Below, in pieces: positions 12,040 to 61,704 of a stretch of 64,000 nucleotides of DNA. Positions within the stretch are counted from its first letter, which is position 1. Every line of letters begins with the position of its first letter. Both the position numbers and the translations under genes were made by a program. This DNA is from a virus (taxonomy: Duplodnaviria > Heunggongvirae > Uroviricota > Caudoviricetes), in IMG/VR virus record IMGVR_UViG_2506381017_000002; one strand, given 5' to 3'. Under the pieces are notes generated by a model. It was not told where the DNA came from, made no database searches, and worked only from the letters and a program-made list of their open reading frames with translations.

Positions 12040-12048
12040 ATTATATCA
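12040..12048 (-). promoter_or_regulatory. extended -10 promoter TGATATAAT (conserved ATGATATAAT motif, copy 1)
   Basis: Reverse complement of ATTATATCA; the same 10-mer recurs at 14241, 15194, 15680 and 61696. Confidence 0.4.
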
Positions 12049-12241
12049 TACGATTACAATAAAACAGTTAAACTATAGAATAATACTGCTCACAGCGTCT
12101 AAAATAATCCTTGACAAGTTTTGACTCCCACTAATTTACAAATGTGATACAATAACATTAAGGAAATCCAAATACGGATTCCTACCTTCCTAAGATGGCT
12201 CCACTTTATGTGGGGCTTTTCTTTTTACTTATTTTTAGTAA

Positions 12242-12353
12242 AGAAGTGTTATTTGTTTGTAATAACACTTCCTAATTTAAGCTATTTTAGCACTCATTTT
12301 TCTGGTAAAATAAAGAAGTGTTATAATTCTATATATCAAAAAATAACACTTGT
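12242..12353 (+). promoter_or_regulatory. two inverted-repeat operator-like sites (GAAGTGTTAT / ATAACACTTC)
   Basis: GAAGTGTTAT-N8-ATAACACTTC at ~12242-12272 and GAAGTGTTAT-N24-AATAACACTTG at ~12311-12353, directly upstream of the recombinase start at 12361. Confidence 0.4.
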
Positions 12354-12360
12354 ATTAGGT

Positions 12361-12960
12361 GGTTTTATGAAACAGTTAGTCTTACCCATAAAAGACTCTT
12401 ATGTGTTATCTGAAGTACAAGATACGTTACTAAATAACTTTAGAGCTGGTGTTAGAAACTACACTATCTTTCAAGTTGGAAAAGCTACCTTACTTCGAGT
12501 AAGTGACGTACTCAGATTAAAACAAGAAGATGTCTATGATAAATATGGTGAGGTAAAAAGAAATGCATTTATTAAAGACAAAAAGACGGGGAAGCAAAAT
12601 ACATTGTATTTAAAACCTGTCCGTGAAGATTTAGAAAATTACAAAAAATGGTTAGAAGAAAATGATTATTATTTAACAACGCCCTGGTTATTTCCTTCAA
12701 CTACCAGACCCAACAAACATATTGATGAAAGGCAATATTATACGGTCATGCACGAAGTTGGAGATCTCTTGGACATTCCATATCTTGGAACACACACTAT
12801 GAGAAAGACTGGGGCATATCGAGTTTATGTACAGAGTAATTATAATATCGGATTAGTCATGTCATTACTTAACCATTCATCAGAAGAAATGACCCTGAGA
12901 TATTTGGGATTAGATCAAGTATCCCGAGAAAGATTGTTGGACAAGGTCGATTTTGGGTAA
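12361..12960 (+). CDS. short tyrosine recombinase / phage-integrase-family protein
   Basis: AGGTGG RBS before ATG 12361. C-terminal catalytic signature LGTHTMRKTGAY ... LLNHSSEEMTLRYLGL (H-x-x-R ... H ... Y). Confidence 0.6.
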   Translation, partial: GFMKQLVLPIKDSYVLSEVQDTLLNNFRAGVRNYTIFQVGKATLLRVSDVLRLKQEDVYDKYGEVKRNAFIKDKKTGKQNTLYLKPVREDLENYKKWLEENDYYLTTPWLFPSTTRPNKHIDERQYYTVMHEVGDLLDIPYLGTHTMRKTGAYRVYVQSNYNIGLVMSLLNHSSEEMTLRYLGLDQVSRERLLDKVDFG

Positions 12961-12970
12961 GGAGAAAAAT

Positions 12971-13228
12971 ATGCAACCATTATATATTTTGCAGGGACTT
13001 ATATGTCTCAATATTCTATTTCAATTAATCGTTATTTCATTTTTTAATAGGAAGAAAAAGCATTGGATTGCCATTGCGCAAATGAGTTTAAGCGTTGTTG
13101 TTTTAGCTCTCGTCTCAACAGAGCTATTTGTTATTGGACGTGTCAACTTTCCAGTAGTGCTTACATTCATTATTCAATGCGCCTTGATTCGTATATTTTG
13201 GAAGACGCTTAGACAGTTCGAAAATTAA
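12971..13228 (+). CDS. small membrane protein
   Basis: AAGGAG RBS; hydrophobic throughout. Confidence 0.45.
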   Translation: MQPLYILQGLICLNILFQLIVISFFNRKKKHWIAIAQMSLSVVVLALVSTELFVIGRVNFPVVLTFIIQCALIRIFWKTLRQFEN

Positions 13229-13277
13229 CACTATATAATAGGAAGAAACTCGTTCAAAAAAGAAAAAGGTGAGGACT

Positions 13278-13952
13278 ATGGGAAGAAGATTTGGTAGCAA
13301 AAATGGTATGGGGACTGGTTCAACAAGGATGTCTAGGCATACTGGAAGTGGAAAATATGGTAGTGGTGGACGAAATTCTTCTATTCATGTTCCTACACGG
13401 CCATTCTGGACAACTAAGAAATGGAAAAAGAAACCATTATCTGCCAAGATATTTGATATTGTTATTATGTTAGCTGGATTAGCAATTATTTTGGTTGTAG
13501 CTATGTTTCTTGTTAATGGCACAAAGAACGGAAATAATAACGAGAATGTAACATCTGTATATTCAAGTAATAGCAAGAAAAAGAAGAATTCATCTTTTAG
13601 GGATAAGAATGAAGGAGTAGAGGGGACAAAAGAAACCGAAGAGGGGAGTACAGATACTATAAAAAGTGGAACGATCGATTCTTCACTTTCTAGAGAAGAA
13701 AGTATCGCTCGTGAAGAATCTATTGGTAGAAGCCATAGAGAATATAAGGATGATAACAACGGAAATAATAGTCGAGAATATTATGATGCAGATAGTATCT
13801 CATCTCGACTTCACATAACACCTACCCCTAAACGAAACCAGGACGAATACCCAAACCTGCAATCTCAGGAAACACCGCAACAAAGTCAATCCAATAACAC
13901 ATCAACTCAACCAGCCAAAAATAATGCTCCACAACCAATTAGTCCACAATAA
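13278..13952 (+). CDS. membrane-anchored low-complexity protein
   Basis: GGTGAGG RBS; a single TM helix followed by an S/N/E/K-rich disordered tail. Confidence 0.45.
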   Translation: MGRRFGSKNGMGTGSTRMSRHTGSGKYGSGGRNSSIHVPTRPFWTTKKWKKKPLSAKIFDIVIMLAGLAIILVVAMFLVNGTKNGNNNENVTSVYSSNSKKKKNSSFRDKNEGVEGTKETEEGSTDTIKSGTIDSSLSREESIAREESIGRSHREYKDDNNGNNSREYYDADSISSRLHITPTPKRNQDEYPNLQSQETPQQSQSNNTSTQPAKNNAPQPISPQ

Positions 13953-14240
13953 GCCTTATTATTATTCCTGCTTAGACGAAACGAAAAATTAATTAACATA
14001 TAGTTGATCATTTAGATTGCGCTGAGAGCTTGTTTTTAATGCTGAGTTGCAAGAAAAACTTCGGTAAAATAAAAAGGTAGATATTTTCCCACAAATATCT
14101 CACCCCAATATTCATATACTAAAATCTCCCTCAAGGAATTTTAGTGAAAATATGTTTCTTTATAACCTTTTGACATTCTACAATGAGTAGGATGTCTTTT
14201 TTTATACTCTGAAGCAGGATAAATGCCAAGTTTTATGTTA

Positions 14241-14249
14241 TGATATAAT
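14241..14249 (+). promoter_or_regulatory. extended -10 promoter TGATATAAT (copy 2)
   Basis: Context ATGTTATGATATAAT; no good -35 element. Confidence 0.35.
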
Positions 14250-14485
14250 TAGGGTATTATATGCTGCACAGTAAGAACCTAACAAAAATAGACATCTATC
14301 ATTACCTCAATTGAAGTAGTTAATAGATGCCTATTTTTCTTATTTCTATCAATTGTCCCCCCTGTGCAGGACACAAACCACCAATTTTATCATAACATTA
14401 AAATAATACTATGATCAAGTATGACTAATAGGGTATAATATACCTAGTTACTATTTAGAGTAACTATTTTCATCTTCATTGGAGC

Positions 14486-14519
14486 TCCAGGACATCTTCC
14501 CAGTCCTGGACTTCTTTTT
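14486..14519. terminator. rho-independent terminator (bidirectional)
   Basis: TCCAGGAC-ATCTTCCCA-GTCCTGGA followed by a T-run; it abuts the stop of the minus-strand gene at 14518. Confidence 0.5.
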
Positions 14520-15039
14520 ATCTAAATCCATAAAGAAACTGAACATACGAAAAAGACGTTACCATATTGTCTCCAAATCCGTCTAACATGTTTTTATTAT
14601 CCAGGAAAGGATATACCTTAATTCTCAATCCGATTAGTTCCTTATCAGAAAAACTGTCTAAATATTCATATACAGCTCGTGGTGAAGTAAACCATGTAGA
14701 CTCTAAGTCTTTTACAACCTCGAACTTATAGTTGATTGGATGAACTTCAATATTTTTCTTGCGTTTAATAGTTACTCGGAACTTTCTAGAGAACTTCCAT
14801 TCACCATATTTCATTCGTCCATGGACAGGCATTGATTGTTCTTGCCTTAAAGCAATCCACTTCTTGATTTGTATCCCCTTAGGGCGTGGCTGAAATTTCA
14901 TAGTTCGTGCAAACTTTTCTTTTAATTGTTCTCTAGTCAAACTAGTTGATTTATGTTCTAATTCCTTAATCCTTTTTTGTAATTGTTCATATTCTTGTAT
15001 TTCTTCTGGGGATAAATTTAATTTATTCATGTTTTTCAC
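14518..15039 (-). CDS. hypothetical protein
   Basis: 173 aa; GAGGTG RBS; basic with a coiled-coil N-terminus. Confidence 0.5.
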   Translation of the reverse strand: MKNMNKLNLSPEEIQEYEQLQKRIKELEHKSTSLTREQLKEKFARTMKFQPRPKGIQIKKWIALRQEQSMPVHGRMKYGEWKFSRKFRVTIKRKKNIEVHPINYKFEVVKDLESTWFTSPRAVYEYLDSFSDKELIGLRIKVYPFLDNKNMLDGFGDNMVTSFSYVQFLYGFR

Positions 15040-15193
15040 CTCAAAAAAAATATATCATACTCAGATTAAAAAATACGCAAATTTCAGTAATTACTGAAAA
15101 TGGAGTGAAATGCAGAAATTTTTGAAATTCTATTGACATCTTCATGTACAATACTAACTTTATAAAACATTCATTTTAGAAAATATTTGGCTA

Positions 15194-15202
15194 TGATATA
15201 AT
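15194..15202 (+). promoter_or_regulatory. extended -10 promoter TGATATAAT (copy 3)
   Basis: Context GGCTATGATATAAT. Confidence 0.35.
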
Positions 15203-15208
15203 AATAAT

Positions 15209-15292
15209 GTGCTATTTATCTCCCTAAGCGTAAATGGCATATTCATAAATAAATAACCCAGGAATCATTTCGGTTCCTGGGTCCCTTTTTAT
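15209..15292 (+). ncRNA. candidate small RNA (~85 nt) between the copy-3 promoter and its terminator
   Basis: No ORF; ends in the hairpin ACCCAGGAA-TCATTTCGG-TTCCTGGGT plus CCCTTTTTAT (15256-15292). Confidence 0.3.
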
Positions 15293-15551
15293 CTATATGA
15301 TATTTTTCACATTTTGTGCATAGTAAAAGACCGTCCTCGTATAACTTTGGCGAGTTGCAGGACGATCTTTTATTAGTTAATCTGTAACATGGCCACCGTC
15401 TTTTTAACGGGCCTGCTTTTTGCGTATCTATATTATAGCATGAAAGAAGGGAATTGAGTAGTCGGTGAATACTTAGTGAGGTGTTCATGAGTCTTTTGTG
15501 TTATAACCAGTCATTAAAATTTTTATTTTAATGCGACGAAAATAAGGCAAA

Positions 15552-15597: not shown

Positions 15598-15679
15598 TTA
15601 GTCTCTACATTGTCTTATTATACACTATAGAAAAACTTAGTGTAAGTTGTAATCATTTAATTTCAAATAATCTTTCCTA

Positions 15680-15688
15680 TGATATAAT
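15680..15688 (+). promoter_or_regulatory. extended -10 promoter TGATATAAT (copy 4)
   Basis: Context TCCTATGATATAAT. Confidence 0.35.
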
Positions 15689-15820
15689 ATTTATGGATTA
15701 TAAGGAAGCGTTGGTGGTTCCTAATCTCTGGTTTATAATACTGGAGGTGCTGCCAATGAAAGCAGTTAAACAAACTTGACCCTAAGTTCAATTTTCGTAA
15801 GAAAGGAGAATGGCGGGTAA

Positions 15821-15970
15821 ATGAGTTTCAACAGCCTAGACCCATTTGAAGGCCTTGCAAAGGTTATTCGGGCTATGCGTGGACTCGATACCGGTGTGCA
15901 ATATGCCACCCTTGCCACATTTGTAATTGTGGTTGGCATTATTGCGTTTACTATTTGCTATACGCACTAG
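15821..15970 (+). CDS. small hydrophobic peptide (49 aa; holin or type I toxin-like)
   Basis: AAAGGAG RBS; MSFNSLDPFEGLAKVIRAMRGLDTGVQYATLATFVIVVGIIAFTICYTH with a C-terminal TM helix. Confidence 0.4.
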   Translation: MSFNSLDPFEGLAKVIRAMRGLDTGVQYATLATFVIVVGIIAFTICYTH

Positions 15971-15983
15971 CGTTAACAGCAAA

Positions 15984-16025
15984 TAAAAAACACCATTCGT
16001 GAGTTTAGCAGCGAACGATGGTGTT
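15984..16025 (-). terminator. rho-independent terminator (minus strand), repeat of the 15552 unit
   Basis: A-run plus an imperfect hairpin CACCATTCG...CGAACGATGGTG. Confidence 0.35.
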
Positions 16026-16082
16026 TAGTCTCAACGTCATTAAGAGATTAGGCATTATCAACAATACTTATTAATCTCAGGA

Positions 16083-16113
16083 AGAGCTATGCTGCAACAT
16101 AGCTCTTTTTGTT
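16083..16113 (+). terminator. rho-independent terminator
   Basis: AGAGCTATG-CTGCAA-CATAGCTCT plus TTTTTG; same loop as the hairpin at 11574. Confidence 0.55.
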
Positions 16114-16196
16114 TACACAAGTATTATAACATCTTATGTTCGTTACGTACATAAAAATTAAAAAATCTTCTTGACATTGTTATTTTGTAATAATTA

Positions 16197-16478
16197 CTAT
16201 GCTGCTTGCTCCATTTTAGTTAACTTAGTCCTCATCATTGCAGCTGCATGGCAATAAATTTCGTAACAAGGATCATCTTTTTCAAAGATTAATGCTTCGT
16301 TTAAATTAGGTGTCAAATATACTTCATTAACTTCAATATCAGAGGTCTTCATACCAAATCTACTCGTTAAGTGCTTGCCATCAACTCCACATACATATAA
16401 CTGTCCAACCTTGATTAAATAAAATGTCTCTTTTATAAGGATCACCGTTCCTCTCTTGGGGTATCTAAATAGTCCCAC
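16197..16478 (-). CDS. hypothetical protein (GTG start, uncertain)
   Basis: 93 aa with a non-ATG start. Confidence 0.3.
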   Translation of the reverse strand: MGLFRYPKRGTVILIKETFYLIKVGQLYVCGVDGKHLTSRFGMKTSDIEVNEVYLTPNLNEALIFEKDDPCYEIYCHAAAMMRTKLTKMEQAA

Positions 16479-25957: not shown

Positions 25958-26024
25958 TGGGACGGGTGGGATTCGAACCCACGACATTGTGCACTTGTTC
26001 TACCAAACTGAACTACCGACCCTG
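25958..26024 (-). pseudogene. tRNA-like element (truncated anticodon arm; probable tRNA pseudogene)
   Basis: Acceptor GGGTCGG/CCGTCCC with one mismatch; D arm GTTC-AGTTTGGTA-GAAC; T arm GTGGG-TTCGAAT-CCCAC. Only ~65 nt, with about 8 nt missing between the D and T arms. Confidence 0.4.
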
Positions 26025-26295
26025 CTTGCTTTAGTACATTCAGAAAGCATTCCAAAGATCTTATTTTAAGCTCACAAATTTATTACACGGATAGGAGCTA
26101 GGTTCTACGTTTACCTGAATCGCCGTGGTTTCTATAAGAAATTTCTAACAACGAGGGAGCTACCCTCCGGCTACATATTAACGGTGGTGTAACCTTAGAT
26201 GCCACGTTTCCATTTCAATTAAGAAGGTTGATAAAAACCTTTCATCACTGCGCTATAGCGCGTCTGCCAATTCCGCCACTCCGGCGATTCAGAAT

Positions 26296-26440
26296 TTGAT
26301 CCTATACGCCAGAGGTAGGACTCGAACCTACAAAATCTATAGCATTTTGTGACTATGGAGTAGACGGGAGTCGAACCCGTGTCCAACCAAACCAGTTTCC
26401 AAATACATTTTAGACTTATTAGGATTATGTACTTAATTCT
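26296..26440 (-). other. two abutting tRNA-like elements of non-canonical structure
   Basis: T-arm-like CACGGG-TTCGACT-CCCGT plus CTACTCCA at ~26356-26400, directly followed by hairpin ACAAAAT-GCTATAG-ATTTTGT plus T arm GTAGG-TTCGAGT-CCTAC plus CTCTGGCG at 26307-26355. No matching 5' acceptor strands were found. Confidence 0.3.
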
Positions 26441-26791
26441 TAAATCAAAATAGTCACATAATCATTTTCCAAAGACTATTTTAATCGATCTAGTTTTAAT
26501 ACTTAGTCACACTTAAACTAGCAAATCATGAACTAAGACCAGAGGGGTGAAATGTGATAGCTAGTATCCTTATCTGGTATCAAGATATTAACCAAGTGCC
26601 TATAAGCTAGGCAGCTAAAGCTGTAACTCTATGGTTATTTGCTTTTATATTTAAATGAAAGTATTTCGGCGTTATCTTCCGTAAGTCGTATTTAGGGCTT
26701 TATTTGACTGTCGAATCCATAAACTACCCCAGAATAGAGCTTTAAATCATAGCTCCAAATAATAATTCAAATAGACTTCTTGATGAAGTCT

Positions 26792-26865
26792 ATAACATAG
26801 AAGGGATTTGAACCCTTGCTCTTACCCGCTAAGATAAAGCTCTACCAAGCTGAGACTTACTATGT
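26792..26865 (-). tRNA. tRNA-like gene (74 nt; perfect acceptor and T arm, internal arms not resolved)
   Basis: Acceptor AACATAG/CTATGTT 7/7, T arm AAGGG-TTCAAAT-CCCTT, D-loop-like CAGCTTGGTAGAGC. I could not fold the anticodon arm by eye. Confidence 0.45.
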
Positions 26866-27209
26866 TACTTATATATCAAAATATTTCTTGTGGTGGAACC
26901 CCTAACAGCTTTTGCCTTATTCCACATTTATTCCTACTAGCTTCATAGGATGGGCATAGTCCTTATCCCTGCTAAGGGGGCGCTGTCGTTACTCGCTGAA
27001 TATTTTAATATGTTCTTGTTAAGGGAGACTCATTTCAAGACCTCAACATCGGTCGGTTGAATGACTACTTACGCGCTAAGGATGTATACTATCCTTTCAT
27101 CATCTTCCCACCTGGTAGCTAACCCCACTCACGGATTCCGCACATGACTACGCTCCGTCAGCGAATATTGTACCTGTCTTTTATAAAATCCTGATTTTAA
27201 AAACCAGAA

Positions 27210-27282
27210 TGGACCTTGCAGGACTCGAACCTACGACCGAGCGGTTATGAGCCGCCTGCTCTACCAACTGAGCTAAAGGTCC
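27210..27282 (-). tRNA. tRNA-Met (anticodon CAT; could be Ile2 if lysidinylated)
   Basis: GGACCTT-TA-GCTC-AGTTGGTA-GAGC-A-GGCGG-CTCATAA-CCGCT-CGGTC-GTAGG-TTCGAGT-CCTGC-AAGGTCC-A gives a full canonical cloverleaf; no encoded CCA. Confidence 0.9.
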
Positions 27283-27428
27283 AAAATTTAGAGAACACGA
27301 TTAATCACTTCATGTTCTCAAAGTAACAAGGATAGTTGATTAGTCCTATCGCCGAGACGCCCATTCAAGTGCGTTGCTCTCCTTTACATACCAACCACTA
27401 CATTCAAAGCGTTGACGCTTGCTACTCT

Positions 27429-27515
27429 AACTACGAAGACAGGATTCGAACCTGCAACCTAGGATCAAGTTTTATCGGTGTACACCCCTATGCTCTAGCC
27501 AATTGAGCTACTTCG
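27429..27515 (-). tRNA. tRNA-like gene (~87 nt, long-variable-arm type; anticodon unresolved)
   Basis: Acceptor TACGAAG/CTTCGTA 7/7, D arm GCTC-AATTGGCTA-GAGC, T arm GCAGG-TTCGAAT-CCTGT; 36 nt between the D and T arms that I could not fold unambiguously. Confidence 0.4.
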
Positions 27516-27888
27516 TAAGAATAATGTCCACCCAGAAACGTTAGATGGTGAACTGATAAGTTAAGAGCTTGTTGACTGTGCTAAGTATCAGTCTGATTAC
27601 TCTTAGAGCTTATATCTTTTTGATGGACATTGACTTAGCAATTCTGTCCACGAATGATTAATTAGTAGGTTTACCACCAACCTACCTTGTAGAAACGCCG
27701 TTAAGCTTTCGTGGTCATGGTCACTCATTCTACTTTCACGGGGTTTGCCATGACACAAGCCGCTTGGTTTTTCTTAATAGCCTGACTAGGGCTACCAAAA
27801 TACAACAACTACCAATGGGCAGTGAAACGCCATGATTTAGGCGTATATCCAAATTCACTTGGTGTTCTCCTTGCATACCAAGGAGAAT

Positions 27889-27950
27889 AGCTTGGGAGGG
27901 AATTGAACCCTAAACGTACGCTGGCACCCTGCCATTATCACCAAGCCCCA
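27889..27950 (-). pseudogene. truncated tRNA-like element (~60 nt)
   Basis: Acceptor GGCTTGG/CCAAGCT and T arm TAGGG-TTCAATT-CCCTC, but only 26 nt between; no D or anticodon arms. Confidence 0.3.
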
Positions 27951-28885: not shown

Positions 28886-29037
28886 AATAACGTGCCATGC
28901 CAGCGTAAACACGTTATTAGATCGAATTGAAAAATGTAAAGGTAAAGGTATATGGAAAATATAACCTATTGAACATACGTTAGGTGTTTTTACATTCCAA
29001 ACGTTTTCCGTCATTTGGAACAACCTATTACTAGGAA

Positions 29038-29110: not shown

Positions 29111-29179
29111 GTCAAGATAAGACCACACATATCTTATCTGACTAACCAATCTTTCATATTTCGGAGGTGCTTAACCATG

Positions 29180-54719: not shown

Positions 54720-55490
54720 TTTTATATAACATCGTAAGTTATATAAGGATAACCTTTTATTTCTTAATCGCTTCAAGGCTTGCGATTGCCTGCTCCTTTA
54801 TCGTGTCTTTATTATAACTTCCGATGTTATAATTGTCAAGACTTAATTTTTTGAATTGTAGCGGTTGACCTTGAAGTCAAAGTTAGATACTCAAGTGAAC
54901 TCACTTTCAATCCATTTATTAAGTTTGTGCTTTTTATTATAACTTCGTAAGTTATAAATTGTCAAGAAGTAAATTTGATTAATTTTTAATCACCTAGGCT
55001 AGTTCGATGACTGCTCTTTATTGTGATTGTCCTAATCAACTTTACGGCTTTATTATAACTTCCGATGTTATAAATGTCAATACCTTTTTCAAATTATTTT
55101 TGATACCTGGTATTTATTGCCGTTGTCCTTTTGACGATTCCAATTATAACATCGCAAGTTATAAAGTCAACTATTTTTTGTAAAAAAATAAGAGTAGTTA
55201 TAATAACTACTCTTGTAATTCTTTTAGGCGCTTATCTAATTCAATTTTAAACTCTTTCAAATCACTGATATAAGTATCTCTTATATCTATATTAGATTTT
55301 ATTAATTGATATAATCTTGTTTTAGATGATGGGCGAATAAAGCCCCCCGCCTCACTCTTACGCTTCCAATAGTAAGCTTTATCTGGATTAGCTTTTTCAT
55401 AATTCTTTTTTGCTTGTTTTTGTGCTTCACTAACCAAGACTTCACCTCCTTTTTACTTTATAACATGGTAAGTTATAAGTATTATACCAT
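54720..55490. repeat. array of six TTATAAC-N7-GTTATAA palindromic promoter/operator elements
   Basis: Copies at ~54731, 54810, 54943, 55076, 55144 and 55462. Several embed TGTTATAAT/TGTTATAAA extended -10 sequences, and several are followed by ATTGTCAAG. Confidence 0.6.
55207..55437 (-). CDS. small basic protein (TTG start), candidate regulator; inverted paralog of the plus-strand gene at 56715-56912
   Basis: AAAGGAGGTGAA RBS; one TTATAAC-N7-GTTATAA element sits between its -10 and its RBS. The C-terminus ...DKRLKELQE matches ...ERLKELKK in the paralog. Confidence 0.5.
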   Translation of the reverse strand: MVSEAQKQAKKNYEKANPDKAYYWKRKSEAGGFIRPSSKTRLYQLIKSNIDIRDTYISDLKEFKIELDKRLKELQE

Positions 55491-56714
55491 ACTCAACAGA
55501 AATAAAACTACACAATCAGTAATTGACTATTACAATACTTAAGTTTAAAATTGTTATATCTCCTTGAGTAAGGAGGTGACAACATGAAACATAATGAAAA
55601 AGAAAAGAAACAACCCTATAAGGCTTTTTACTTTGAGTGTAGCCTAATAAAGTTATTTCTTAAAATCATCATTATAAAGTAGTGTAATCACTTCCCTGAG
55701 TTGTTGTGTGACGGCTCAACCCAGGGAGATTTTTATTACAATTACATTATATCACAATTTATTGTGGTATTATATATTTGTTGATATGATATTACTAGAT
55801 TGTTATAATATAGATACAAGAAAACCCCTAAAGGTTGTTAACTTGTCCGTTAACCTTTAGGGCGGTGAGTTATTCACTACTTAATAATAAAGAATTTAAA
55901 GAATAATCTTAAAAGGCTGAACTCGCAATATACAACCTTAAAAGATTGTTCTTTTTTCTTTTTATTGTTCATGTTCCCACCCCCTTTCCTTAAGGGGTTA
56001 AAATAATTTAAACATCGTTATTTCTGAAAGTCAATAATTGAAAAAGAAAAAGCCAAAACGCAAAAGTAAAAAACGTTAAGGCTTAAAGGCTTAAAAGCTT
56101 ACATATTGAGGGAACGTGGCGCCGTTCCCTTTTTGTATAATTATCATATCATACTTACAACCCTAACAGAATAGAAAAATAACACCCCTTTATTTTTCTA
56201 TATAAGGAAGAAAAAACATAATAAAAAAACGATAAAGAAAAAAATAAATATACATGTTGACAACATGAAGAATTGTGTTATTATAATATACGTAAGCTAT
56301 TAATATAGTTTACAAGGCGACACACTAACAACAAATAATAAAGGTTTGAGGTGGTCAAATTGTATTCTATATTGTTGCATGCTGCAACCTTGTTTAGTTT
56401 GGTAAGTGGTGGAATTCTGGCGATAGTAACATCAATCGAAAAAGTTCTTATCATAAAAGAAAAAGCCCACAAGTCAGATAAGGACAAGGGGCAAAAATAA
56501 CTTACATTTATGAATATTTGGGAAGTGTTGCGACCACTTCCCTTTTTCTACAGTGTTATAATAACATAATAAAAAGGGTGTGACAATATGAAATGGATCA
56601 TATTAATTGGTCTATATCTTTTCGGGTTTGTTTGTCTAACGGTTGCGATCAAAAAGGCGAGAAAAATATATAATACTTTAAAGCATAATAAATAATTAAA
56701 ATAAATATAGAATT

Positions 56715-56939: not shown

Positions 56940-57620
56940 GTTTAGCGTGTTGCCCTTTTGTATTGTGGTTATATGATAACGCTTACATAGTGATGTATAG
57001 CAGTGTATAGGTATTACAGTGATATGTATATAGTAGCGTGCATAGTGTTGTTATGATAGTGATATATAGTAGTGTTATTTGTGTCTGTGTATAGATGTAT
57101 ATAGGTTAGTGAGTGAGTAGTGTTACATAGTGATATGCATAGTGAAGTAATATGATAGTGTAGTGATGTATATAATGTATTGAGTTAGTAACTGATTTAC
57201 GTTTGTAGATATTAGATTGTCAAGGCTGAGAGTGAGTGCGGTGTATGGGGTGTAGTGTGATTAGTATGTTTGATATATGATAATGTTTTCATATGTTATT
57301 GTAATGATATAGTAAGTGAGTAGTATATTGATATGTATGTATTGAGTGAGTAAGTAGGCGGATTGCGTGAGTGTGTTTGGTTAGTTAGTTATTATATTAG
57401 GGGTGTGTATTAAGTTACGTTTGTAAATTTTAAATTGTCAAGAGTGAATTTTTATGGTCTGGGTTTATTATTGTGTTGGTTGTGATATGTATTAGTTAGA
57501 TTTTATTTATTAGGGGTGTGGGTGAATTATTGGGCGGTGTTAGGTTAGGTAAACGGTTATTATATTAATTTATTGGGTGTTTGGTGTGGTGTGTGAGTAT
57601 GTGTGAACATTTGTTCATAG
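56940..57620 (+). repeat. cytosine-depleted GT/A-rich degenerate repeat tract
   Basis: About 2% C over ~650 bp on the top strand; reiterated GTGATA / TAGTG / GTATAG units; two copies of TTACGTTTGTA..ATTGTCAAG. Confidence 0.6.
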
Positions 57621-58099
57621 CAGATTATAATATATGAAATTTTGTTCATATGAATTAGTGAAAAGTACCCTACCCAGCCCACCAAAATAAATATATTAAG
57701 TTTACAACTGTAGCCCCTTATAAATAAAATTACCCCTTATCAAAAGATAGGGGCTTTCTTTTTCGATATTAAAATATTCTTGTAACCGTTTACACATAAC
57801 AACAACTATTATTGTGTCTTAAATTTGCAAATAGGCGGGGGTTATTTTACTCAAAACGCCTTAATTTTTAGGGAAAATTTTAGGGTAGTTGCTTCACTCA
57901 CACACCACAAAATTTTTTCCATTCACCCCATTTCTCGCACCCTATCACCCCTCAAATATCCCAATAAATTAATACCAAATTTAACCTTTTCAAAACTATG
58001 AAAATATCTTTCATAATCTTTCAACACAATATCCCTACCCATTCCTCTCACCCTTTCCCATTCAACTATAAATAAAGAGCCTAGGAATTACCCTAGACT

Positions 58100-58426
58100 C
58101 TAATTCATCTCATTATTAATATACTCTTCTAACCCAACTCTGGTCTCGTCATCTAAATTGGCAACATACTCCCTATATTTACTCAAATAGCCCTCATTAA
58201 TACTACTAATTACATATAATATATACCCTTCGTATAGACCATCTGGACACTTTAATAATCGCTGCATCAGTCTCATTAAATAGTAATACTGTTCATCATA
58301 ACCATCATTCATATATTTATTCTCAAATATATAATATGCAGTCCAAATAATATTATCGTCCCTATTTTCTAAACTGGATATACCCCATAGTTCCTTAATT
58401 ATAGTATCTAGTTTAATAATCTCCAC
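58100..58426 (-). CDS. hypothetical protein
   Basis: 108 aa, Tyr/Glu-rich. Confidence 0.45.
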   Translation of the reverse strand: MEIIKLDTIIKELWGISSLENRDDNIIWTAYYIFENKYMNDGYDEQYYYLMRLMQRLLKCPDGLYEGYILYVISSINEGYLSKYREYVANLDDETRVGLEEYINNEMN

Positions 58427-59857
58427 TGTCGTTTCCCCATTCTTATATTAAACGTATGTTCCCTTGTTATAATACACGAACGAATGTTCTTTATCAAGTA
58501 TTATCAGTAAATAGATACATATATCGCTTTATAGTACATTTTTATATTTATGTTCTTAATGCCATATACCCAATTATTCTGATTTATGAAAATATTGCGC
58601 ACCCAAAATAGCCATTTTTTGAAACAAAGAAAATTGCCTCTCGCTTTCATAACAATTATTTTCATAAAATTACTCAAAACTACCCTATTTTGCACCCAAT
58701 AAAATCTTCGAAACTCCCTATGAGGAATTCCTCAATTCACAAACTTTCGACTTCTACACAAACAACATTACTGAATTTAATTATACTTTGTGAATTTTTC
58801 TTCACTAATTCAAGAATTCAATTCTAAATAACTAAAATATGAACAAAAATTGTTATGAAAACATCGTTTTATGCATACCTAACTTATTTACGAAATAATC
58901 TGTCTTATTGTACAAAACTAAAAATTCATCATTCTTAATATTTCGCACCCTACTACTCATGTAACTAACCCTATCGAAACTCCCTATTTTTCATTTTGAT
59001 ATTTTTACTCAAATCACTGAATTTTTAACCAAAAAAAATGAACTAATACCAAATCCTATTTAATAGGATCTAGTAGTACTTTTTTATAATTATTATTCAC
59101 TTGAGACATTCATTAGTACATCTTCGATAATACAAGGGGTTTCAAACATCTAATTCCAGAAAATTTCACAAACTTAAAAAGGGTGCGGGGTATTTTTACT
59201 CTAATAACCTATAATTATATGTTTCGTATTGGTTCATTATTTCCACTCAGACTATTTTTCATAATTCCGCCGCCATCTATCCATTGTAATAGGAAGAAAA
59301 CCTCTATTTTCTATCACTGCTTTTATTGTCGCTTGTGAAGTCATCAAAAAATGCTGTTTCATTTTTATGTAACTATTCTCGCCTTCTTTTTCTCTTTAAA
59401 CACAGCCAAACACCAACGTAGAATGGAGTTAACGGGTCATAAATCAAAATTACATTAATTTATCTAAATCAGCTCTTAGCCCCATTATTCATTGTTCGTT
59501 TTGATTATTTATGAGCAATAATTATGTAGGTCAATTATTAAAACAGCTATTCCACAAGTTCCTTTAAATAAAAAACAGCGACAGTAAATACCACCGCTGA
59601 AATAATTACGGATTACTTACATAACCACTTACTAATCTTTTTAATTAAATGTTTAACGTGCTTATTAGGCACAATCAATATTATTAGACACCAATGCGTC
59701 ATAAAGGAGTTGCCTCCTTTCTGCACTAGTCGGGTTTCCTAAGCCCGCTCAAATGTGCCTAATTATTGTATCATATTTATTTTATGCTATAATATAGTTA
59801 TCAATATTATTAGGCCGTGTGATGTGGGTGCTTCCTAGCTCACGCATTGGTTTAACG

Positions 59858-59935
59858 TGGGGCGCCCTGATAGGCGCTCTTTTTTTTATTTAAAATAAAA
59901 GCCACAGTAACTAGTTTATCTGTTACTGTGGCTTT
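59858..59935. terminator. two consecutive rho-independent terminators
   Basis: GGGCGCC-CTGATA-GGCGCTC plus T8, then GCCACAGTAAC-loop-GTTACTGTGGC plus TTTT. Confidence 0.5.
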
Positions 59936-59997
59936 TCACATTTTATATTACTTTATATGTTTAATTCCGATTAAATCATATATAATCAGATTAAGTA

Positions 59998-60387
59998 TTA
60001 CGATAACATGTCTAAATTAGGCCTGTTTTTCAATTTAGAACTCAAAGAACTGTCATCAGTTTTAGAGTCATTATCGTTTTTCTTATTTCCAATTCTTGTC
60101 CTTAATTTGCGCTTGGGCTTTTCTTCAACATCGACATCATCATTCTCTTCTACCGACGTCTTTTCTTCTAGTTTTGAAACTGAGTTAATAGTACCTAACT
60201 GTCCATCTAAGCTTGCACTATCTAAAATAGCTTGGATAAGATCACCAGTTCCATATTTCCTAACTACCATTTCTAATGCCCTAATAGCAGCCGGAGAAAA
60301 TTGTGACTGGTTTTTAGACCATTCTGCAACTTTTGAATCCTCGGGAATAAGGATAGTTTTTCTAATCATTTTCGCCATAAAAATCAC
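59998..60387 (-). CDS. putative ParR-like centromere-binding adaptor (type II partition)
   Basis: Immediately downstream of the actin-like ATPase; N-terminal basic ribbon-helix-helix-like segment and acidic/Ser-rich tail. Confidence 0.4.
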   Translation of the reverse strand: MIFMAKMIRKTILIPEDSKVAEWSKNQSQFSPAAIRALEMVVRKYGTGDLIQAILDSASLDGQLGTINSVSKLEEKTSVEENDDVDVEEKPKRKLRTRIGNKKNDNDSKTDDSSLSSKLKNRPNLDMLS

Positions 60388-60392
60388 ACTCT

Positions 60393-61604
60393 CTATAAGG
60401 CTTCAACAATTACTTGTAATCCTAATTCATTTAAATATTGTGCATATTCCTTATCAATCCAAATTACTGGAACATCATATCCACCACTGAAGCTCTTAAG
60501 TTTTTCGTTCAATACTTCGCGAAGATTACTCTCATCTAGCATTGGAATGGAACCACCACCATATACGTAAACAAGTTCAGTATCCTTAGCGATACGCATT
60601 GTTTGACTAACTGTATCGATAATCTTGTCAGCTAATGGTTCTAATTGGTCGTAAACAACTTGACGTACTTTATCTTGGCGAGCTCGACGCAATGGACTGA
60701 CCTTTTCAGATAAGAAACTCTGTAATTGTGAACGTTCCTCAAAATTCATTTGTTGATCTTGAAGAACACGCACTGCATCTTGTAATACATTTCCGTATCC
60801 TTGTGGTAACGAAGCTGATGCTGCTGGATTAGCTTTACCGTTAATAATTGCTACTACATCAGTAGTCCCTTCTCCGATATCAATTCCAAGTACATTTCGT
60901 GAATTAATAAGGTCGTCAGCTCCAACTTCATCCTTCATTTCTGAATAGTTCTTATCAAAGTCTTCCTTAATTTTATCTGTTAATCCATCATAATCGGAGG
61001 AAATAAGCATTTGGGCTGTTTCACCTTCTAATGCAACATATACTTTATTAAATTCAATGGTTACATTAATTGGATCCTTAAAGTTATGGAAAGTTACTGT
61101 ATGCGTACTACCCATGTAACGTTCTTTGTAACGATCTTTTGCATTATTAACCTTACCTTCTGAAATAGGTAACGCAGTCGCCATATTAACTTTTACCTTT
61201 AGAGTCTCCTTTAAGTCTTGTCCAGCTTCATATGCTTCTTTTACTTTCTTTCCAGCTATCAAACTTAAAGTAAGAATAATTGCTAAATCTGTTTCTGATT
61301 TACCAGTAAAGTCATTAACATCAAAAGCCCTCATAGATAGACCACTGTCGATCGCAGCATTACCAATTAAAAATCTTCCAGAGGTTTTTACTGCATTACT
61401 TGACACACTAACGTCCATGTTATTAAGAAAGTTCTTCATATATGTATCTTGATCTTGTTTAGAATCAAATTCCATAGGAGCTTGTACATCTTGTGGACGT
61501 TCTGCTGCTATAACTGACGGAAACTTAATATTTTCACCATCAACATTTGCTTTTACAGAACCATATCCCAAATCATTTGCAACCTTCATAATCTTCTCAA
61601 CCAT
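60393..61604 (-). CDS. actin-like ATPase (ParM/Alp-family segregation protein)
   Basis: N-terminal phosphate-1 motif KVANDLGYGSVKA, later VLGIDIGEGTTDV and VYVYGGGS (actin-fold phosphate-2/adenosine motifs); 403 aa. Confidence 0.65.
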   Translation of the reverse strand: MVEKIMKVANDLGYGSVKANVDGENIKFPSVIAAERPQDVQAPMEFDSKQDQDTYMKNFLNNMDVSVSSNAVKTSGRFLIGNAAIDSGLSMRAFDVNDFTGKSETDLAIILTLSLIAGKKVKEAYEAGQDLKETLKVKVNMATALPISEGKVNNAKDRYKERYMGSTHTVTFHNFKDPINVTIEFNKVYVALEGETAQMLISSDYDGLTDKIKEDFDKNYSEMKDEVGADDLINSRNVLGIDIGEGTTDVVAIINGKANPAASASLPQGYGNVLQDAVRVLQDQQMNFEERSQLQSFLSEKVSPLRRARQDKVRQVVYDQLEPLADKIIDTVSQTMRIAKDTELVYVYGGGSIPMLDESNLREVLNEKLKSFSGGYDVPVIWIDKEYAQYLNELGLQVIVEAL

Positions 61605-61695
61605 TATTTCTACCTCCGATTTATAACATAATCATATTATATCATACTTAATACAAATTTAAGTGTAACTAAATAAGATATTTTATTTTTTTATA

Positions 61696-61704
61696 TGATA
61701 TAAT
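61696..61704 (+). promoter_or_regulatory. extended -10 promoter TGATATAAT (copy 5)
   Basis: Context TTATATGATATAAT in the parM upstream/centromere region; the hairpin AACGCT-TTGGT-AGCGTT at ~61803-61822 lies downstream. Confidence 0.3.

What the first reader, a model, noticed from the sequence alone, without database searches (positions are those of the whole stretch)
12040..61704. Five copies of an identical ATGATATAAT extended -10 element, each heading a tiny terminator-bounded unit
The 10-mer ATGATATAAT (TGnTATAAT extended -10, no good -35) occurs at 12040 (minus), 14241, 15194, 15680 and 61696. A near-variant TATGATATTATAAT sits at 11547. Four copies are followed within 80-450 nt by strong hairpin terminators. 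The units carry no ORF at 14250-14519 (~260 nt) and 15209-15292 (~85 nt), a 49 aa hydrophobic peptide at 15821-15970, and a 94 aa membrane ORF at 11638-11922. This looks like a dedicated promoter class, perhaps using a phage sigma factor or RNAP modifier, driving small RNAs and micro-proteins.
Basis: seen in the sequence. Interest (0 to 1): 0.65.

Follow-up and report, generated by a model that had tools for sequence, protein, structure and literature searches.

The report
Host-type promoters heading toxin–antitoxin modules
The repeated 10-mer is the textbook consensus promoter of Gram-positive bacteria, not a phage-specific signal; in this Limosilactobacillus reuteri phage-plasmid it mostly switches on small RNA-controlled toxin genes, a partition operon and small RNAs that probably keep the element in the cell.

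Summary
The motif is real and non-random: ATGATATAAT occurs six times, not five, against 0.77 expected. All six copies have a T upstream, giving TATGATATAAT. That is a perfect match to the Gram-positive sigma-A "-16/extended -10" consensus T-R-T-G-n-TATAAT.

The window is part of a ~130 kb L. reuteri phage-plasmid. A 94%-identical relative has no annotated sigma factor and no copy of the motif in its 50 kb structural block. At orthologous promoters position -13 varies or the wider 10-mer is replaced. The same promoter type heads the same modules on non-phage Lactobacillaceae plasmids. A dedicated phage promoter class is therefore not supported.

What the copies drive:
- **Two convergent type I toxin–antitoxin-like pairs.** The toxins are a 94-aa and a 49-aa membrane peptide under purifying selection. 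Each mRNA is closed by a 5'-3' helix (covariation-supported for the 49-aa locus, invariant in the two 94-aa sequences) and faces a RatA-like antisense RNA.
- **A third module whose toxin has been deleted.** Relatives keep a Pfam Hol_Tox toxin there.
- **An Alp7A/ParM-like partition operon.**
- **Two structured small RNAs** of unknown target.
- **One unstructured stretch** carrying a partition-locus inverted repeat.

The promoter is ordinary. The modules are new members of a known kind.

The parts
12040..12050 (-). Promoter a: TATGATATAAT (TRTGnTATAAT) with no usable -35. It drives the toxin-a mRNA.
   Evidence: Conserved in p53608_1.
11562..12033 (-). Predicted toxin-a mRNA of about 470 nt, carrying the 94-aa membrane ORF 11638-11922. 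The 5' UTR is highly conserved. A 5'-3' closing helix joins 12024-12009 with 11618-11603. The mRNA ends at hairpin 11572-11599.
   Evidence: Fold z = -7.8. dN/dS 0.19 against L002. 58.6% identical homologue in p53608_1 and a copy with in-frame stops in L006. Both helix arms are invariant islands within diverged sequence.
11547..11708 (+). Antisense RNA a. Promoter TATGATATTAT(AAT) at 11547-11560, RNA about 11564-11708, convergent with and fully overlapped by the toxin-a mRNA. It has a 5' hairpin at 11572-11599 and a terminator at 11669-11700.
   Evidence: Rfam RatA 33.8 bits against a gathering score of 49, E = 0.08, full-length match with the shared 5' motif AUGUAAACAAAAAGAG. Compensatory changes in the 5' hairpin.
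14239..14519 (+). Unit b. Promoter TATGATATAAT at 14239-14249. It is followed by a hairpin/terminator at 14284-14338, a second -10 (TAGGGTATAAT, 14429-14439), and a 74-nt two-hairpin RNA at 14447-14519 ending at terminator 14486-14510. It is convergent with the 173-aa ORF 14518-15039(-).
   Evidence: z = -4.8 and -4.3. L006 shows the basic unit is a promoter plus the 74-nt RNA. The window, L001 and L005 carry a ~190-nt insertion with a duplicated promoter. It is 91-94% conserved in four L. reuteri plasmids.
15192..15292 (+). Unit c. Promoter TATGATATAAT at 15192-15202 and an 84-nt RNA at 15209-15292. The RNA has a 5' hairpin, a 15-nt A/U linker and terminator 15256-15282.
   Evidence: Fold z = -6.8. 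95% conserved in p53608_1. Interrupted by an IS/cargo insertion in L004. No significant complementarity to the three toxin mRNAs.
15296..15440 (-). Remnant of a third toxin-antitoxin module. The truncated toxin promoter TATGATAT (15296-15303, plus strand) is fused to the last codons of a deleted Hol_Tox toxin gene (15304-15323). The antisense RNA is retained: promoter TGCTATAAT at 15432-15440(-), RNA about 15425 to 15320.
   Evidence: The alignment with six intact loci shows the deletion. Intact toxin in relatives scores PF16935 Hol_Tox 43.9 bits against a cut-off of 23.3. The orphan RNA folds with z = -4.1.
15678..16113 (+). Promoter d (TATGATATAAT, 15678-15688) and the predicted ~420-nt toxin-d mRNA (15695-16113). 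It contains a 7-codon leader ORF with a GGAGGTG Shine-Dalgarno (15747-15770), the 49-aa ORF 15821-15970, an internal hairpin at 15988-16026 and terminator 16082-16107. The 5' end pairs with 16046-16079.
   Evidence: Fold z = -7.6. For the 5'-3' helix, 31 pairs are 95% paired, 11 are compensatory, 0 of 500 shuffles match, and slid controls reach at most 49%. The helix is kept with a fifth sequence. dN/dS 0.13.
15978..16131 (-). Antisense RNA d. Promoter TGTTATAAT at 16123-16131(-), RNA about 16115 to 15980. It is a homologue of antisense RNA a and lies entirely inside the 3' part of the toxin-d mRNA. Its 5' hairpin is the toxin terminator read from the other strand.
   Evidence: Rfam Ref66 30.4 bits, E = 0.005, against a gathering score of 92. 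Alignment of six copies. Fold z = -3.5.
59998..61646 (-). Promoter e (TATGATATAAT, 61636-61646) and the partition operon: an Alp7A/ParM-like actin (60393-61604) plus a 129-aa ORF (59998-60387).
Evidence: Pfam ALP_N, MreB-like_C and Alp7A_like_C. Sequence read.
61694..61825 (+). Promoter-like copy f (61694-61704) and the 115 nt after it. The stretch is unstructured. It contains one arm (61748-61788) of a 41-nt inverted repeat whose partner (63060-63100) lies upstream of the ParA-DUF5388 operon. The hairpin at 61801-61818 has its U-tract on the minus strand.
   Evidence: z = -0.64; ParA AAA_31, DUF5388.
59566..59887 (.). A further toxin-antitoxin-like pair on one-mismatch variants of the motif. 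TATGATACAAT (59765-59775, minus) drives a 29-aa ORF (59702 to 59613, MTHWCLIILIVPNKHVKHLIKKISKWLCK). The divergent TATGCTATAAT (59783-59793, plus) drives an ~88-nt RNA (59800-59887) complementary to the 5' UTR, Shine-Dalgarno and first codons of that mRNA.
   Evidence: RNAduplex -66.6 kcal/mol against -44.0 +/- 4.5 for shuffles. Peptide homologue in L004.

Best explanation
**What the motif is.** TATGATATAAT is the optimal Gram-positive sigma-A "-16 region / extended -10" promoter. T-17, R-16, T-15 and G-14 plus a perfect TATAAT let the host holoenzyme start transcription without a -35 element. On this L. reuteri phage-plasmid it marks constitutively expressed maintenance and accessory cassettes that must work in the plasmid-prophage state.

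**What it drives**
- Two copies drive mRNAs for small membrane toxins (94 aa and 49 aa).
- In relatives, a further copy of the motif (a seventh site; truncated to TATGATAT in the window) drove a Hol_Tox toxin that has been deleted here.
- One copy drives the Alp7A/ParM-like partition operon.
- Two copies drive structured small RNAs of unknown target.
- One copy faces a partition-site repeat and may be idle.

**How the toxin modules most likely work (inferred).**
1. The toxin mRNA is made continuously but kept inert. A long-range 5'-3' helix closes it and a local hairpin covers the Shine-Dalgarno sequence.
2. A convergent RatA-like antisense RNA of about 140 nt comes from its own extended -10 promoter. 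It is fully complementary to the 3' part of the toxin mRNA, including the 3' arm of the closing helix. It probably triggers RNase III-type decay, as in txpA/RatA.
3. If the element is lost, the labile antisense RNA would decay first, the toxin would be translated, and the plasmid-free cell would be killed.

**Shown.** Motif enrichment and its identity with the consensus; ORF conservation; RNA structure with covariation; the gene layout; family membership of the deleted toxin.

**Inferred.** Transcript ends, toxicity, RNA decay, and the addiction role.
For: **Promoter**
- The motif is enriched and intergenic.
- It equals the TRTG+TATAAT consensus.
- No -35 is present.
- Position -13 is free between orthologues.
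- No sigma factor is annotated in the relative or found among the window ORFs I scanned.
- The motif is absent from the relative's structural module.
- The same promoter type heads the same cassettes on non-phage plasmids and a cargo operon.
- The window's operator-controlled early promoters are canonical TTGACA-N17-TATAA.

**Toxin-antitoxin modules**
- The ORFs are under purifying selection.
- The mRNAs fold with z = -7.6 and -7.8.
- The 5'-3' helix has 11 of 31 compensatory pairs, 0 of 500 shuffles reach it, and it persists with a fifth sequence.
- The antisense RNAs are homologous to each other. They are the best, though sub-threshold, Rfam matches to RatA and Ref66, sharing the 5' motif.
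- The neighbouring module is a bona fide Hol_Tox type I toxin locus in relatives and is precisely deleted here.
- Toxin-a is pseudogenised in another plasmid.
- The literature describes convergent ~110-nt antisense RNAs and 100-140 bp overlaps for TxpA-family loci in Bacillus and Lactobacillales (PMC2887945; PMC6562991).
Against: - There are no transcript data, so every start and end is predicted.
- Six of the ten TRTGnTATAAT sites share A at -16 and -13. That is more uniform than the consensus demands.
- Most ORFs of the element have unknown function, so a divergent RNAP-binding factor cannot be excluded.
- The 49-aa and 94-aa proteins hit no Pfam, NCBIfam or PHROG toxin family.
- 94 aa is large for a type I toxin. 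The 49-aa peptide has its transmembrane segment at the C-terminus, which is atypical.
- The RatA and Ref66 matches are below their gathering scores.
- Covariation rests on only 4-5 sequences.
- For toxin-a, the closing helix is invariant in the two available sequences, so it is neither supported nor contradicted.
- Units b, c and f have no assigned function.
Confidence: 0.7

Rival explanations
1. The 10-mer is a dedicated phage promoter class, read by a phage-encoded sigma factor or a modified RNA polymerase, that times the expression of small RNAs and micro-proteins during infection.
For: - The 11-mer is identical at six sites with no -35.
- The element is a phage-plasmid with many ORFs of unknown function.
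- Six of ten TRTGn sites share the same -16 and -13 bases.
Against: - The sequence is the host consensus.
- No sigma factor is annotated or detected.
- The motif is absent from the structural and replication blocks of the relative.
- Orthologous promoters differ at -13 or carry TGCTATAAT.
- The same cassettes and promoter type are found on non-phage plasmids of other genera.
- The genes driven are partition and addiction functions, which are needed when lytic genes are silent.
Confidence: 0.05
2. The promoters are host-type, but the convergent pairs are not addiction toxins. They could be antisense-regulated small membrane proteins with another role, such as superinfection exclusion, holin/antiholin-like lysis timing or abortive infection. 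Units b and c would be trans-acting sRNAs aimed at host or phage mRNAs.
For: - No known toxin family matches the two proteins.
- Their size and topology are atypical for type I toxins.
- The family is narrow, with only 2 hits among 1.84 billion representatives.
- Units b and c are well-folded RNAs without a cis target.
- Hol_Tox relatives are described as holin-like.
Against: - The layout, the RatA-like antisense RNAs and the fold-back mRNA are those of type I toxin-antitoxin loci.
- The pairs sit beside a true Hol_Tox locus and beside partition and resolvase genes.
- Toxin genes have been deleted or pseudogenised while the antisense gene is kept. That is the decay pattern expected of toxins.
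Confidence: 0.2
3. The repeats are chance occurrences of an AT-rich word in AT-rich intergenic DNA, or copies spread by duplication of one cassette, with no promoter function.
For: - The window is 30-40% GC, and intergenic DNA is richer in AT.
- The two antisense RNAs and three toxin 5' UTRs are paralogous.
Against: - Six copies against 0.77 expected, with 0 of 100 shuffles reaching six.
- The flanks of the six sites are unrelated.
- All six lie in intergenic DNA. Five sit at a sensible distance upstream of a gene or structured RNA; the sixth, 61694(+), precedes an unstructured stretch and may be idle.
- The -10 is conserved in diverged relatives while the flanks change.
Confidence: 0.03

Closest known systems
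Gram-positive sigma-A promoters with the '-16 region' (TRTGn extended -10; Helmann 1995; Voskuil and Chambliss 1998, 2002, as cited in PMC2613000)
   Same: The match is exact: T-17, A-16 (R), T-15, G-14, n, TATAAT. There is little or no -35, and the upstream DNA is AT-rich.
   Different: Nothing at the sequence level. Activity and start sites are untested here.
txpA/RatA of the B. subtilis skin element, and the TxpA-family locus EF3263 of E. faecalis with its ~110-nt antisense RNA (PMC2887945, PMC6562991)
   Same: - Toxin mRNA and antisense RNA are convergent.
- The overlap is about 140 nt at the 3' end.
- The antisense RNA starts with the RatA-like motif AUGUAAACAAAAAGAG followed by a hairpin.
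- The toxin Shine-Dalgarno is partly buried in a local hairpin.
- The locus sits on a mobile element.
   Different: - The toxins (49 and 94 aa) do not match TxpA/Hol_Tox models.
- The Rfam RatA score is below the gathering score.
- The mRNA is additionally closed by a long 5'-3' helix whose 3' arm lies inside the antisense overlap.
Hol_Tox (PF16935) family type I toxins; by Pfam the deleted module belongs here. By my reading of the N-terminal motif and a weak NCBIfam PepG1 hit it resembles BsrE/BsrH and PepG1-like loci.
   Same: The 29-aa toxin of relatives is a member at 43.9 bits. It has a convergent antisense RNA from a conserved TGCTATAAT promoter and a shared bidirectional terminator. It occurs on L. 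reuteri, L. brevis, L. plantarum and L. kefiranofaciens plasmids.
   Different: In the window the toxin gene is deleted from inside its -10 to its last codons. Only the antisense gene survives.
hok/sok of plasmid R1 (fold-back inhibition plus the mok leader ORF); comparison from my own knowledge of the system
   Same: The full-length toxin mRNA is closed by 5'-3' pairing. A short upstream ORF with a strong Shine-Dalgarno precedes the toxin ORF. An addiction role on a low-copy replicon is presumed.
   Different: The sequences and toxins are unrelated. The host is Gram-positive. The antisense RNA pairs at the 3' end, not the 5' end. 3' processing has not been shown.
Alp7A/Alp7R actin-like plasmid partition system (Bacillus pLS20)
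   Same: Pfam ALP_N and Alp7A_like_C domains. A small downstream ORF sits where the adaptor would be. The promoter lies in a short divergent control region.
   Different: Only distant similarity, 23% to the nearest phage homologue. The centromere has not been identified.

Membership tests
Sigma-A extended -10 (TRTGnTATAAT) promoter | TG at -15/-14 and T-R at -17/-16 upstream of a TATAAT-like hexamer | tested here: met
   All six sites read TATGATATAAT. Consensus taken from PMC2613000.
Sigma-A extended -10 (TRTGnTATAAT) promoter | Intergenic, and correctly placed upstream of a gene or RNA | tested here: met
   All six lie in intergenic DNA. Five of the six are followed by a conserved ORF, operon or structured RNA. 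The copy at 61694(+) is doubtful.
Sigma-A extended -10 (TRTGnTATAAT) promoter | Transcription starts 6-8 nt downstream, by host holoenzyme alone | not testable with these tools
   Needs 5'-end mapping or in vitro transcription.
Phage-specific sigma / modified-RNAP promoter class | The element encodes a sigma factor or a known RNAP modifier | tested here: not met
   No sigma among the 147 annotated CDS of the 94% relative. Thirty-four window ORFs scanned against Pfam show no Sigma70_r2. The only r4 hit is an HNH endonuclease. Many ORFs remain unknown.
Phage-specific sigma / modified-RNAP promoter class | A motif distinct from the host consensus, distributed over a temporal gene class of the phage | tested here: not met
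   The motif equals the host consensus. It is confined to maintenance and accessory regions, with none in the structural block of the relative. It is also found on non-phage plasmids.
Type I toxin-antitoxin system | Small hydrophobic protein that is genuinely coding | tested here: met
   The 49-aa and 94-aa ORFs have transmembrane segments, dN/dS 0.13 and 0.19, and homologues at 41-69% identity.
Type I toxin-antitoxin system | Antisense RNA gene with its own promoter and terminator, complementary to the toxin mRNA | tested here: met
   Convergent units with extended -10 promoters and terminators; complementarity follows from the overlap. Transcripts are predicted, not observed.
Type I toxin-antitoxin system | The toxin is toxic and is neutralised by the RNA | not testable with these tools
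   Indirect support only: the toxin is deleted in the window and pseudogenised in L006, while the antisense genes persist.
RatA antitoxin RNA (Rfam RF01776) / Ref66 (RF02839) | Score at or above the family's gathering score | tested here: not met
   RatA scores 33.8 against 49. Ref66 scores 30.4 against 92. The match is full-length with a shared 5' motif, so these are relatives at best, not members.
TxpA / Hol_Tox toxin family (PF16935) | Pfam model match above its cut-off | tested here: not met
   No hit for the 49-aa and 94-aa proteins even at E <= 10 or E <= 1. Met only by the 29-aa toxin of relatives that is deleted in the window (43.9 against 23.3).
Alp7A/ParM actin-like partition ATPase | Actin-like N-terminal and Alp7A-like C-terminal domains | tested here: met
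   ALP_N 41.6 bits, MreB-like_C 45 bits and Alp7A_like_C 25.2 bits, all above their cut-offs.

The most novel reading that the evidence does not exclude
The 49-aa and 94-aa proteins would define two previously unclassified type I toxin families restricted to Limosilactobacillus plasmids and phage-plasmids. Each would be controlled by a RatA-like antisense RNA, a hok-like 5'-3' fold-back whose 3' arm lies inside the antisense overlap, and a short leader ORF. Together with the Hol_Tox module and a divergent 29-aa/sRNA pair, they would make at least four RNA-controlled toxin cassettes, plus two orphan small RNAs. These would stabilise a 130 kb plasmid-prophage or give abortive-infection immunity.
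Probability: 0.45. Interest if true: 0.45.

Novelty: new member of a known kind. Interest (0 to 1): 0.3.

Why it matters
The promoter observation is ordinary. It shows that this phage-plasmid relies on perfect host-consensus, -35-independent promoters for its maintenance genes.

The useful by-product is an unannotated cluster of RNA-controlled toxin cassettes on a family of large L. reuteri phage-plasmids. L. reuteri is a probiotic species. The published description of the ATCC 53608 megaplasmid could point only to one type II toxin-antitoxin system to explain its stable maintenance (PMC4667477).

If the cassettes are functional, they would:
- explain the persistence of these elements;
- add toxin families that HMM libraries miss;
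- give a Gram-positive example of 5'-3' fold-back control combined with 3'-end antisense pairing.

The six fragments are also ready-made strong constitutive promoters for Limosilactobacillus engineering.

Tried and rejected
- **Rfam at gathering thresholds.** Only tmRNA and tRNAs were found. Nothing matched in the small units.
- **Phage collection.** Megablast of 11-17 kb found no match.
- **Genome-contig scan.** I searched with the 14-mer GTAAACAAAAAGAG, the RatA-like 5' motif. It was too unspecific for 596 Gb and returned random taxa. The scan was wasted.
- **IMG/VR.** Scans with both toxin proteins found no relatives.
- **Protein homologue searches.** Word-indexed and exhaustive searches found only close Limosilactobacillus relatives.
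- **Family libraries.** Pfam, NCBIfam and PHROGs gave nothing for the two toxins, the 173-aa ORF, or the other accessory ORFs tested (13269-13952, 12953-13228, 59998-60387, 16197-16478, 58100-58426; the small peptides only against Pfam).
- **Unit c as a trans-antitoxin.** I tested whether its RNA could pair with the Hol_Tox, toxin-a or toxin-d mRNAs. Duplex energies were within the shuffle range (z = -1.6 to +0.8), so I rejected this.
- **Unit f as an sRNA.** It has no structure (z = -0.6). Its hairpin belongs to the opposite strand and it carries a partition-locus repeat, so I rejected this.
- **ORF 7960-8787 as a sigma factor.** The Sigma70_r4 hit is an HNH homing endonuclease, so I rejected this.
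- **Alternative frame for toxin-a.** The GTG-initiated frame downstream of the good Shine-Dalgarno is not conserved in p53608_1 and has dN/dS above 0.7, so I rejected it.

Full report
**1. The observation**

The 10-mer ATGATATAAT occurs six times in the window: 12040(-), 14240, 15193, 15679, 61636(-) and 61695. Dinucleotide shuffles give 0.77 +/- 0.80, and 0 of 100 reach six.

All six copies carry a T upstream, so the shared word is the 11-mer TATGATATAAT. The flanks are otherwise unrelated. No site has a usable -35 at 16-18 bp; the best is TTTAGA, 4 of 6, at 15193.

The broader classes are also enriched:
- TGNTATAAT: 25 against 6.9 expected.
- TRTGNTATAAT: 10 against 1.15 expected.
- 19 of the 25 TGNTATAAT sites fall in the 27.5% of the window that a crude ORF map leaves intergenic. 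Two more (12317, 15432) lie in ORFs that are over-extended or spurious.

**2. What the window is**

The window is 94% identical over 15 kb to two L. reuteri "plasmids" of 129-133 kb, and 76% identical to p53608_1 of strain ATCC 53608.

The annotated relative NZ_CP102426.1 carries:
- terminase, tape-measure, holin and tail genes;
- replication initiator RepA, ParM/StbA, nucleotide-metabolism genes and type II toxin-antitoxin systems.

It is therefore a phage-plasmid. The window itself adds a tmRNA and seven tRNAs, a RecD-like and a DnaB-like helicase, an Alp7A/ParM-like actin, and a plasmid-type tyrosine recombinase. It also has ParA plus DUF5388. The ATCC 53608 paper describes that replicon as a RepA/ParA megaplasmid with an "incomplete prophage", and noted only one type II toxin-antitoxin system as a stability function (PMC4667477).

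**3. What the motif is**

In Gram-positive promoters the extended -10 motif reaches to -17, with consensus -17 TRTG -14 (PMC2613000, citing Helmann 1995 and Voskuil and Chambliss). T-A-T-G-A-TATAAT matches that consensus and the -10 hexamer perfectly.

Several tests argue against a phage-specific class:
1. **No sigma factor.** None is annotated among the 147 CDS of the relative. Thirty-four window ORFs scanned against Pfam gave no Sigma70 region 2. The single region-4 hit, ORF 7960-8787, is an HNH homing endonuclease (PHROG 374, E = 5e-44).
2. **Restricted distribution.** The relative has the 11-mer three times in 128.8 kb and never in its 50 kb structural block.
3. **Position -13 is free.** Window 55481(-) reads TATGGTATAAT where the relative reads TATGATATAAT in an otherwise aligned promoter.
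4. **Variation at the toxin-d promoter.** A 55%-identical metagenomic homologue of the 49-aa gene uses GTGCTATAAT, and its antisense gene uses TATGGTACAAT.
5. **Ordinary cargo use.** In NZ_CP065541.1 the 11-mer also heads an ABC-permease/glycosyltransferase/EAL operon.
6. **Non-phage plasmids.** The Hol_Tox cassette described below sits on MOBQ-mobilizable plasmids of L. brevis ATCC 367 and L. plantarum and on a non-mobilizable L. kefiranofaciens plasmid. Its antisense promoter TGCTATAAT is conserved in L. reuteri, L. brevis and L. plantarum (TGGTAAAAT in L. kefiranofaciens). Its toxin promoter is TATGATATAAT, TATGACATAAT or CCTGTATAAT depending on the genus.
7. **Canonical early promoters.** The window's operator-controlled leftward early promoters are TTGACA-N17-TATAA, with a 21-bp palindrome (TTATAAC-N7-GTTATAA, five copies) in the spacer.

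By inference, partition and addiction genes have to be expressed while the prophage is silent. That also points to unaided host sigma-A.

**4. What the copies drive: two convergent toxin/antisense pairs**

*Unit d.*
- The promoter at 15678-15688 is followed by a ~125-nt leader and the 49-aa ORF (15821-15970: an amphipathic N-terminus and a C-terminal transmembrane segment).
- A hairpin lies at 15988-16026 and a strong terminator at 16082-16107.
- On the other strand, TGTTATAAT (16123-16131) starts an RNA of about 135 nt. Its 5' hairpin is that same terminator read backwards. It ends with a U-tract at about 15980.
- The RNA therefore lies wholly inside the toxin mRNA.

*Unit a is the mirror image.*
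- The promoter at 12040-12050(-) drives the 94-aa membrane ORF 11922-11638.
- A bidirectional hairpin lies at 11669-11700 and the terminator at 11572-11599.

*The two antisense RNAs.*
- They are homologous, sharing GTAAACAAAAAGAGC plus a hairpin.
- They are the best Rfam matches in the region: RatA 33.8 bits (gathering score 49, full-length, shared 5' motif) and Ref66 30.4 bits (gathering score 92), both sub-threshold.
- Six copies share a 5' hairpin and a terminator with some compensatory changes.

*The ORFs are real genes.*
- dN/dS is 0.13 (d, window against NZ_CP102426.1) and 0.19 (a, window against p53608_1). The other frames give 0.8-3.
- Homologues exist at 68%, 55% and 41% identity for d, the last in L. 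mucosae. For a there is one at 59%.

*The mRNAs are unusually structured.*
- Fold z-scores are -7.6 and -7.8.
- Each is closed by a long-range helix between the first ~40 nt and a 3' segment that lies inside the antisense overlap.
- For d, on four sequences including L. mucosae: 31 pairs, 95% of cells paired, 11 pairs with compensatory changes, 0 of 500 shuffles as good, and slid controls at most 49% paired. A fifth sequence keeps the helix and adds compensatory pairs.
- For a, both arms are invariant islands within diverged sequence. That is uninformative for covariation.
- In d, the Shine-Dalgarno GAAAGGAG is half-buried in a local hairpin. A conserved 6-7-codon leader ORF with a GGAGGTG Shine-Dalgarno lies upstream in four of the five sequences; the L. 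mucosae homologue has a longer upstream ORF (read).

This is the architecture of txpA/RatA-type type I systems: convergent genes, 100-140 bp of 3' overlap, and a buried ribosome-binding site (PMC6562991). An antisense RNA of ~110 nt has been reported for a TxpA homologue in Enterococcus, and TxpA-like loci occur in Lactobacillales (PMC2887945). Here a hok-like fold-back is added.

**5. A third module, with its toxin deleted**

In p53608_1, NZ_CP065541.1 and NZ_CP041677.1, another TATGATATAAT lies just after terminator 15256-15282. It drives a 29-aa peptide, MSAYQALMLMLAFATFIIALLTFIFNFIG. This is a clear member of Pfam Hol_Tox (43.9 bits against a cut-off of 23.3).

The window retains TATGATAT (15296-15303) fused directly to the last codons, TTTTCACATTTTGTGCATAG. 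It also keeps the complete convergent antisense gene (TGCTATAAT at 15432-15440, minus strand). Toxin-a is likewise interrupted by stop codons in NZ_CP041677.1. Loss of the toxin with retention of the RNA is the decay pattern expected of toxin-antitoxin systems.

**6. The remaining copies**

*Unit c (15192-15292).*
- An 84-nt RNA with a 5' hairpin, an A/U linker and a terminator, z = -6.8.
- 95% conserved in p53608_1, and split by an IS/cargo insertion in NZ_CP065541.1.
- It shows no significant pairing to the three toxin mRNAs. Its target is unknown.

*Unit b (14239-14519).*
- NZ_CP041677.1 shows that the core is a promoter plus a 74-nt two-hairpin RNA (14447-14519, z = -4.8).
- The window and two other plasmids carry a ~190-nt insertion with a duplicated promoter and a bidirectional hairpin.
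- The unit is convergent with a 173-aa ORF of unknown function and could be antisense to that gene's 3' UTR. This is inference.

*The copy at 61636(-).* It drives the Alp7A/ParM-like gene and a 129-aa ORF.

*The copy at 61694(+).* It faces the end of the ParA-DUF5388 operon. The 115 nt after it are unstructured (z = -0.6). They contain one arm of a 41-nt inverted repeat whose partner lies upstream of parA. I read this as a partition or operator site rather than an sRNA.

**7. A further pair on one-mismatch variants**

- TATGATACAAT (59765-59775, minus) precedes a 29-aa peptide with a hydrophobic N-terminus and a basic C-terminus (59702 to 59613).
- The back-to-back TATGCTATAAT (59783-59793, plus) precedes an ~88-nt terminated RNA. 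That RNA can pair over ~80 nt with the 5' UTR, Shine-Dalgarno and first codons of the peptide mRNA, at -66.6 kcal/mol against -44.0 +/- 4.5 for shuffles.
- A peptide homologue exists in NZ_CP065541.1.

**8. Verdict**

The motif is a true, enriched promoter element, but it is the host consensus and not a new class. Its concentration at 11.5-16.2 kb and 59.6-61.8 kb reflects the clustering of plasmid-type maintenance cassettes: a recombinase, partition systems, type I toxin-antitoxin-like modules and small RNAs. All of these use strong, -35-independent sigma-A promoters.

The modules are the more interesting part. Two of the putative toxins match no curated family, and the family is narrow, with 2 hits among 1.84 billion representatives. 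They are still new members of a well-known kind, and nothing has been tested experimentally.

- Confidence in the promoter reading: about 0.85.
- Confidence that pairs a and d are functional type I toxin-antitoxin systems: about 0.6-0.65.

Noticed in passing
window 25958-29564 (-): RNA gene cluster on the phage-plasmid: a tmRNA (26353-26730, tag ANNHRVTALAA) and seven tRNAs. One 87-89-nt tRNA (27430-27518) is reported by ARAGORN with a four-base anticodon, 'tgta'.
   Followed up: no
window 54812-55478: Five copies of a 21-bp palindrome, TTATAAC-N7-GTTATAA (0.09 expected). Each sits in the spacer of a minus-strand TTGACA-N17/18-TATAA promoter upstream of the leftward early genes. This looks like a repressor-operator array, possibly the lysogeny switch. 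Several TGTTATAAT matches are part of these repeats.
   Followed up: partly
window 56940-59200: A ~2 kb stretch with only one ORF of 80 aa or more (58100-58426, minus strand) and extreme strand asymmetry. It is G+T-rich up to about 57650, then C+A-rich. GC skew is +0.26 and then -0.32. It is 88% conserved in NZ_CP102426.1. It could be a replication origin/terminus or a former genome end. The relative's record is deposited as linear.
   Followed up: no
window 56351-56500 and 56588-56695 (+): Two more small membrane peptides (49 aa and 35 aa). Each has its own promoter (TTGACA...TTATTATAAT; TGTTATAAT at 56554) and a hairpin terminator. No family match.
   Followed up: partly
window 59566-59887: Divergent pair: a 29-aa hydrophobic/basic peptide and an ~88-nt RNA, with ~80 nt of imperfect complementarity covering the peptide's ribosome-binding site. 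This is a candidate divergent-type type I toxin-antitoxin system.
   Followed up: partly
window 12112-12226 (+): Another tiny unit. TGTGATACAAT (12144-12154) is followed by a ~75-nt two-hairpin RNA ending at terminator 12197-12217 (z = -4.1), just upstream of the plasmid-type tyrosine recombinase gene (true start 12368). It is highly conserved in p53608_1. It could be a leader/attenuator or an sRNA.
   Followed up: partly
window 7960-8787 (+): An HNH homing-endonuclease gene (PHROG 374, E = 5e-44) appears to be inserted next to, or into, the phosphatidylglycerophosphatase A (PgpA) gene. In the relative, PgpA is a single 371-aa CDS.
   Followed up: partly
window 61748-61788 and 63060-63100: A 41-nt inverted repeat (83% complementary) brackets the ParA-DUF5388 operon. 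These are candidate centromere/operator sites, or the boundaries of an inserted partition cassette. The window thus carries two partition systems side by side: Alp7A-like and ParA-type.
   Followed up: partly
L004 (NZ_CP065541.1) 1300-9600: In this relative a cargo block is inserted into unit c. It carries GGDEF and EAL proteins, a glycosyltransferase, an ABC permease, an MFS transporter, and IS66/ISL3 elements. This shows the region is a hot spot for accessory DNA.
   Followed up: no
window 14518-15039 (-): A 173-aa ORF with no Pfam, NCBIfam or PHROG match, driven by TATGATATATT (15049-15059). It is convergent with the unit b RNAs and lacks a terminator of its own before the bidirectional hairpin at 14284-14338.
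   Followed up: partly
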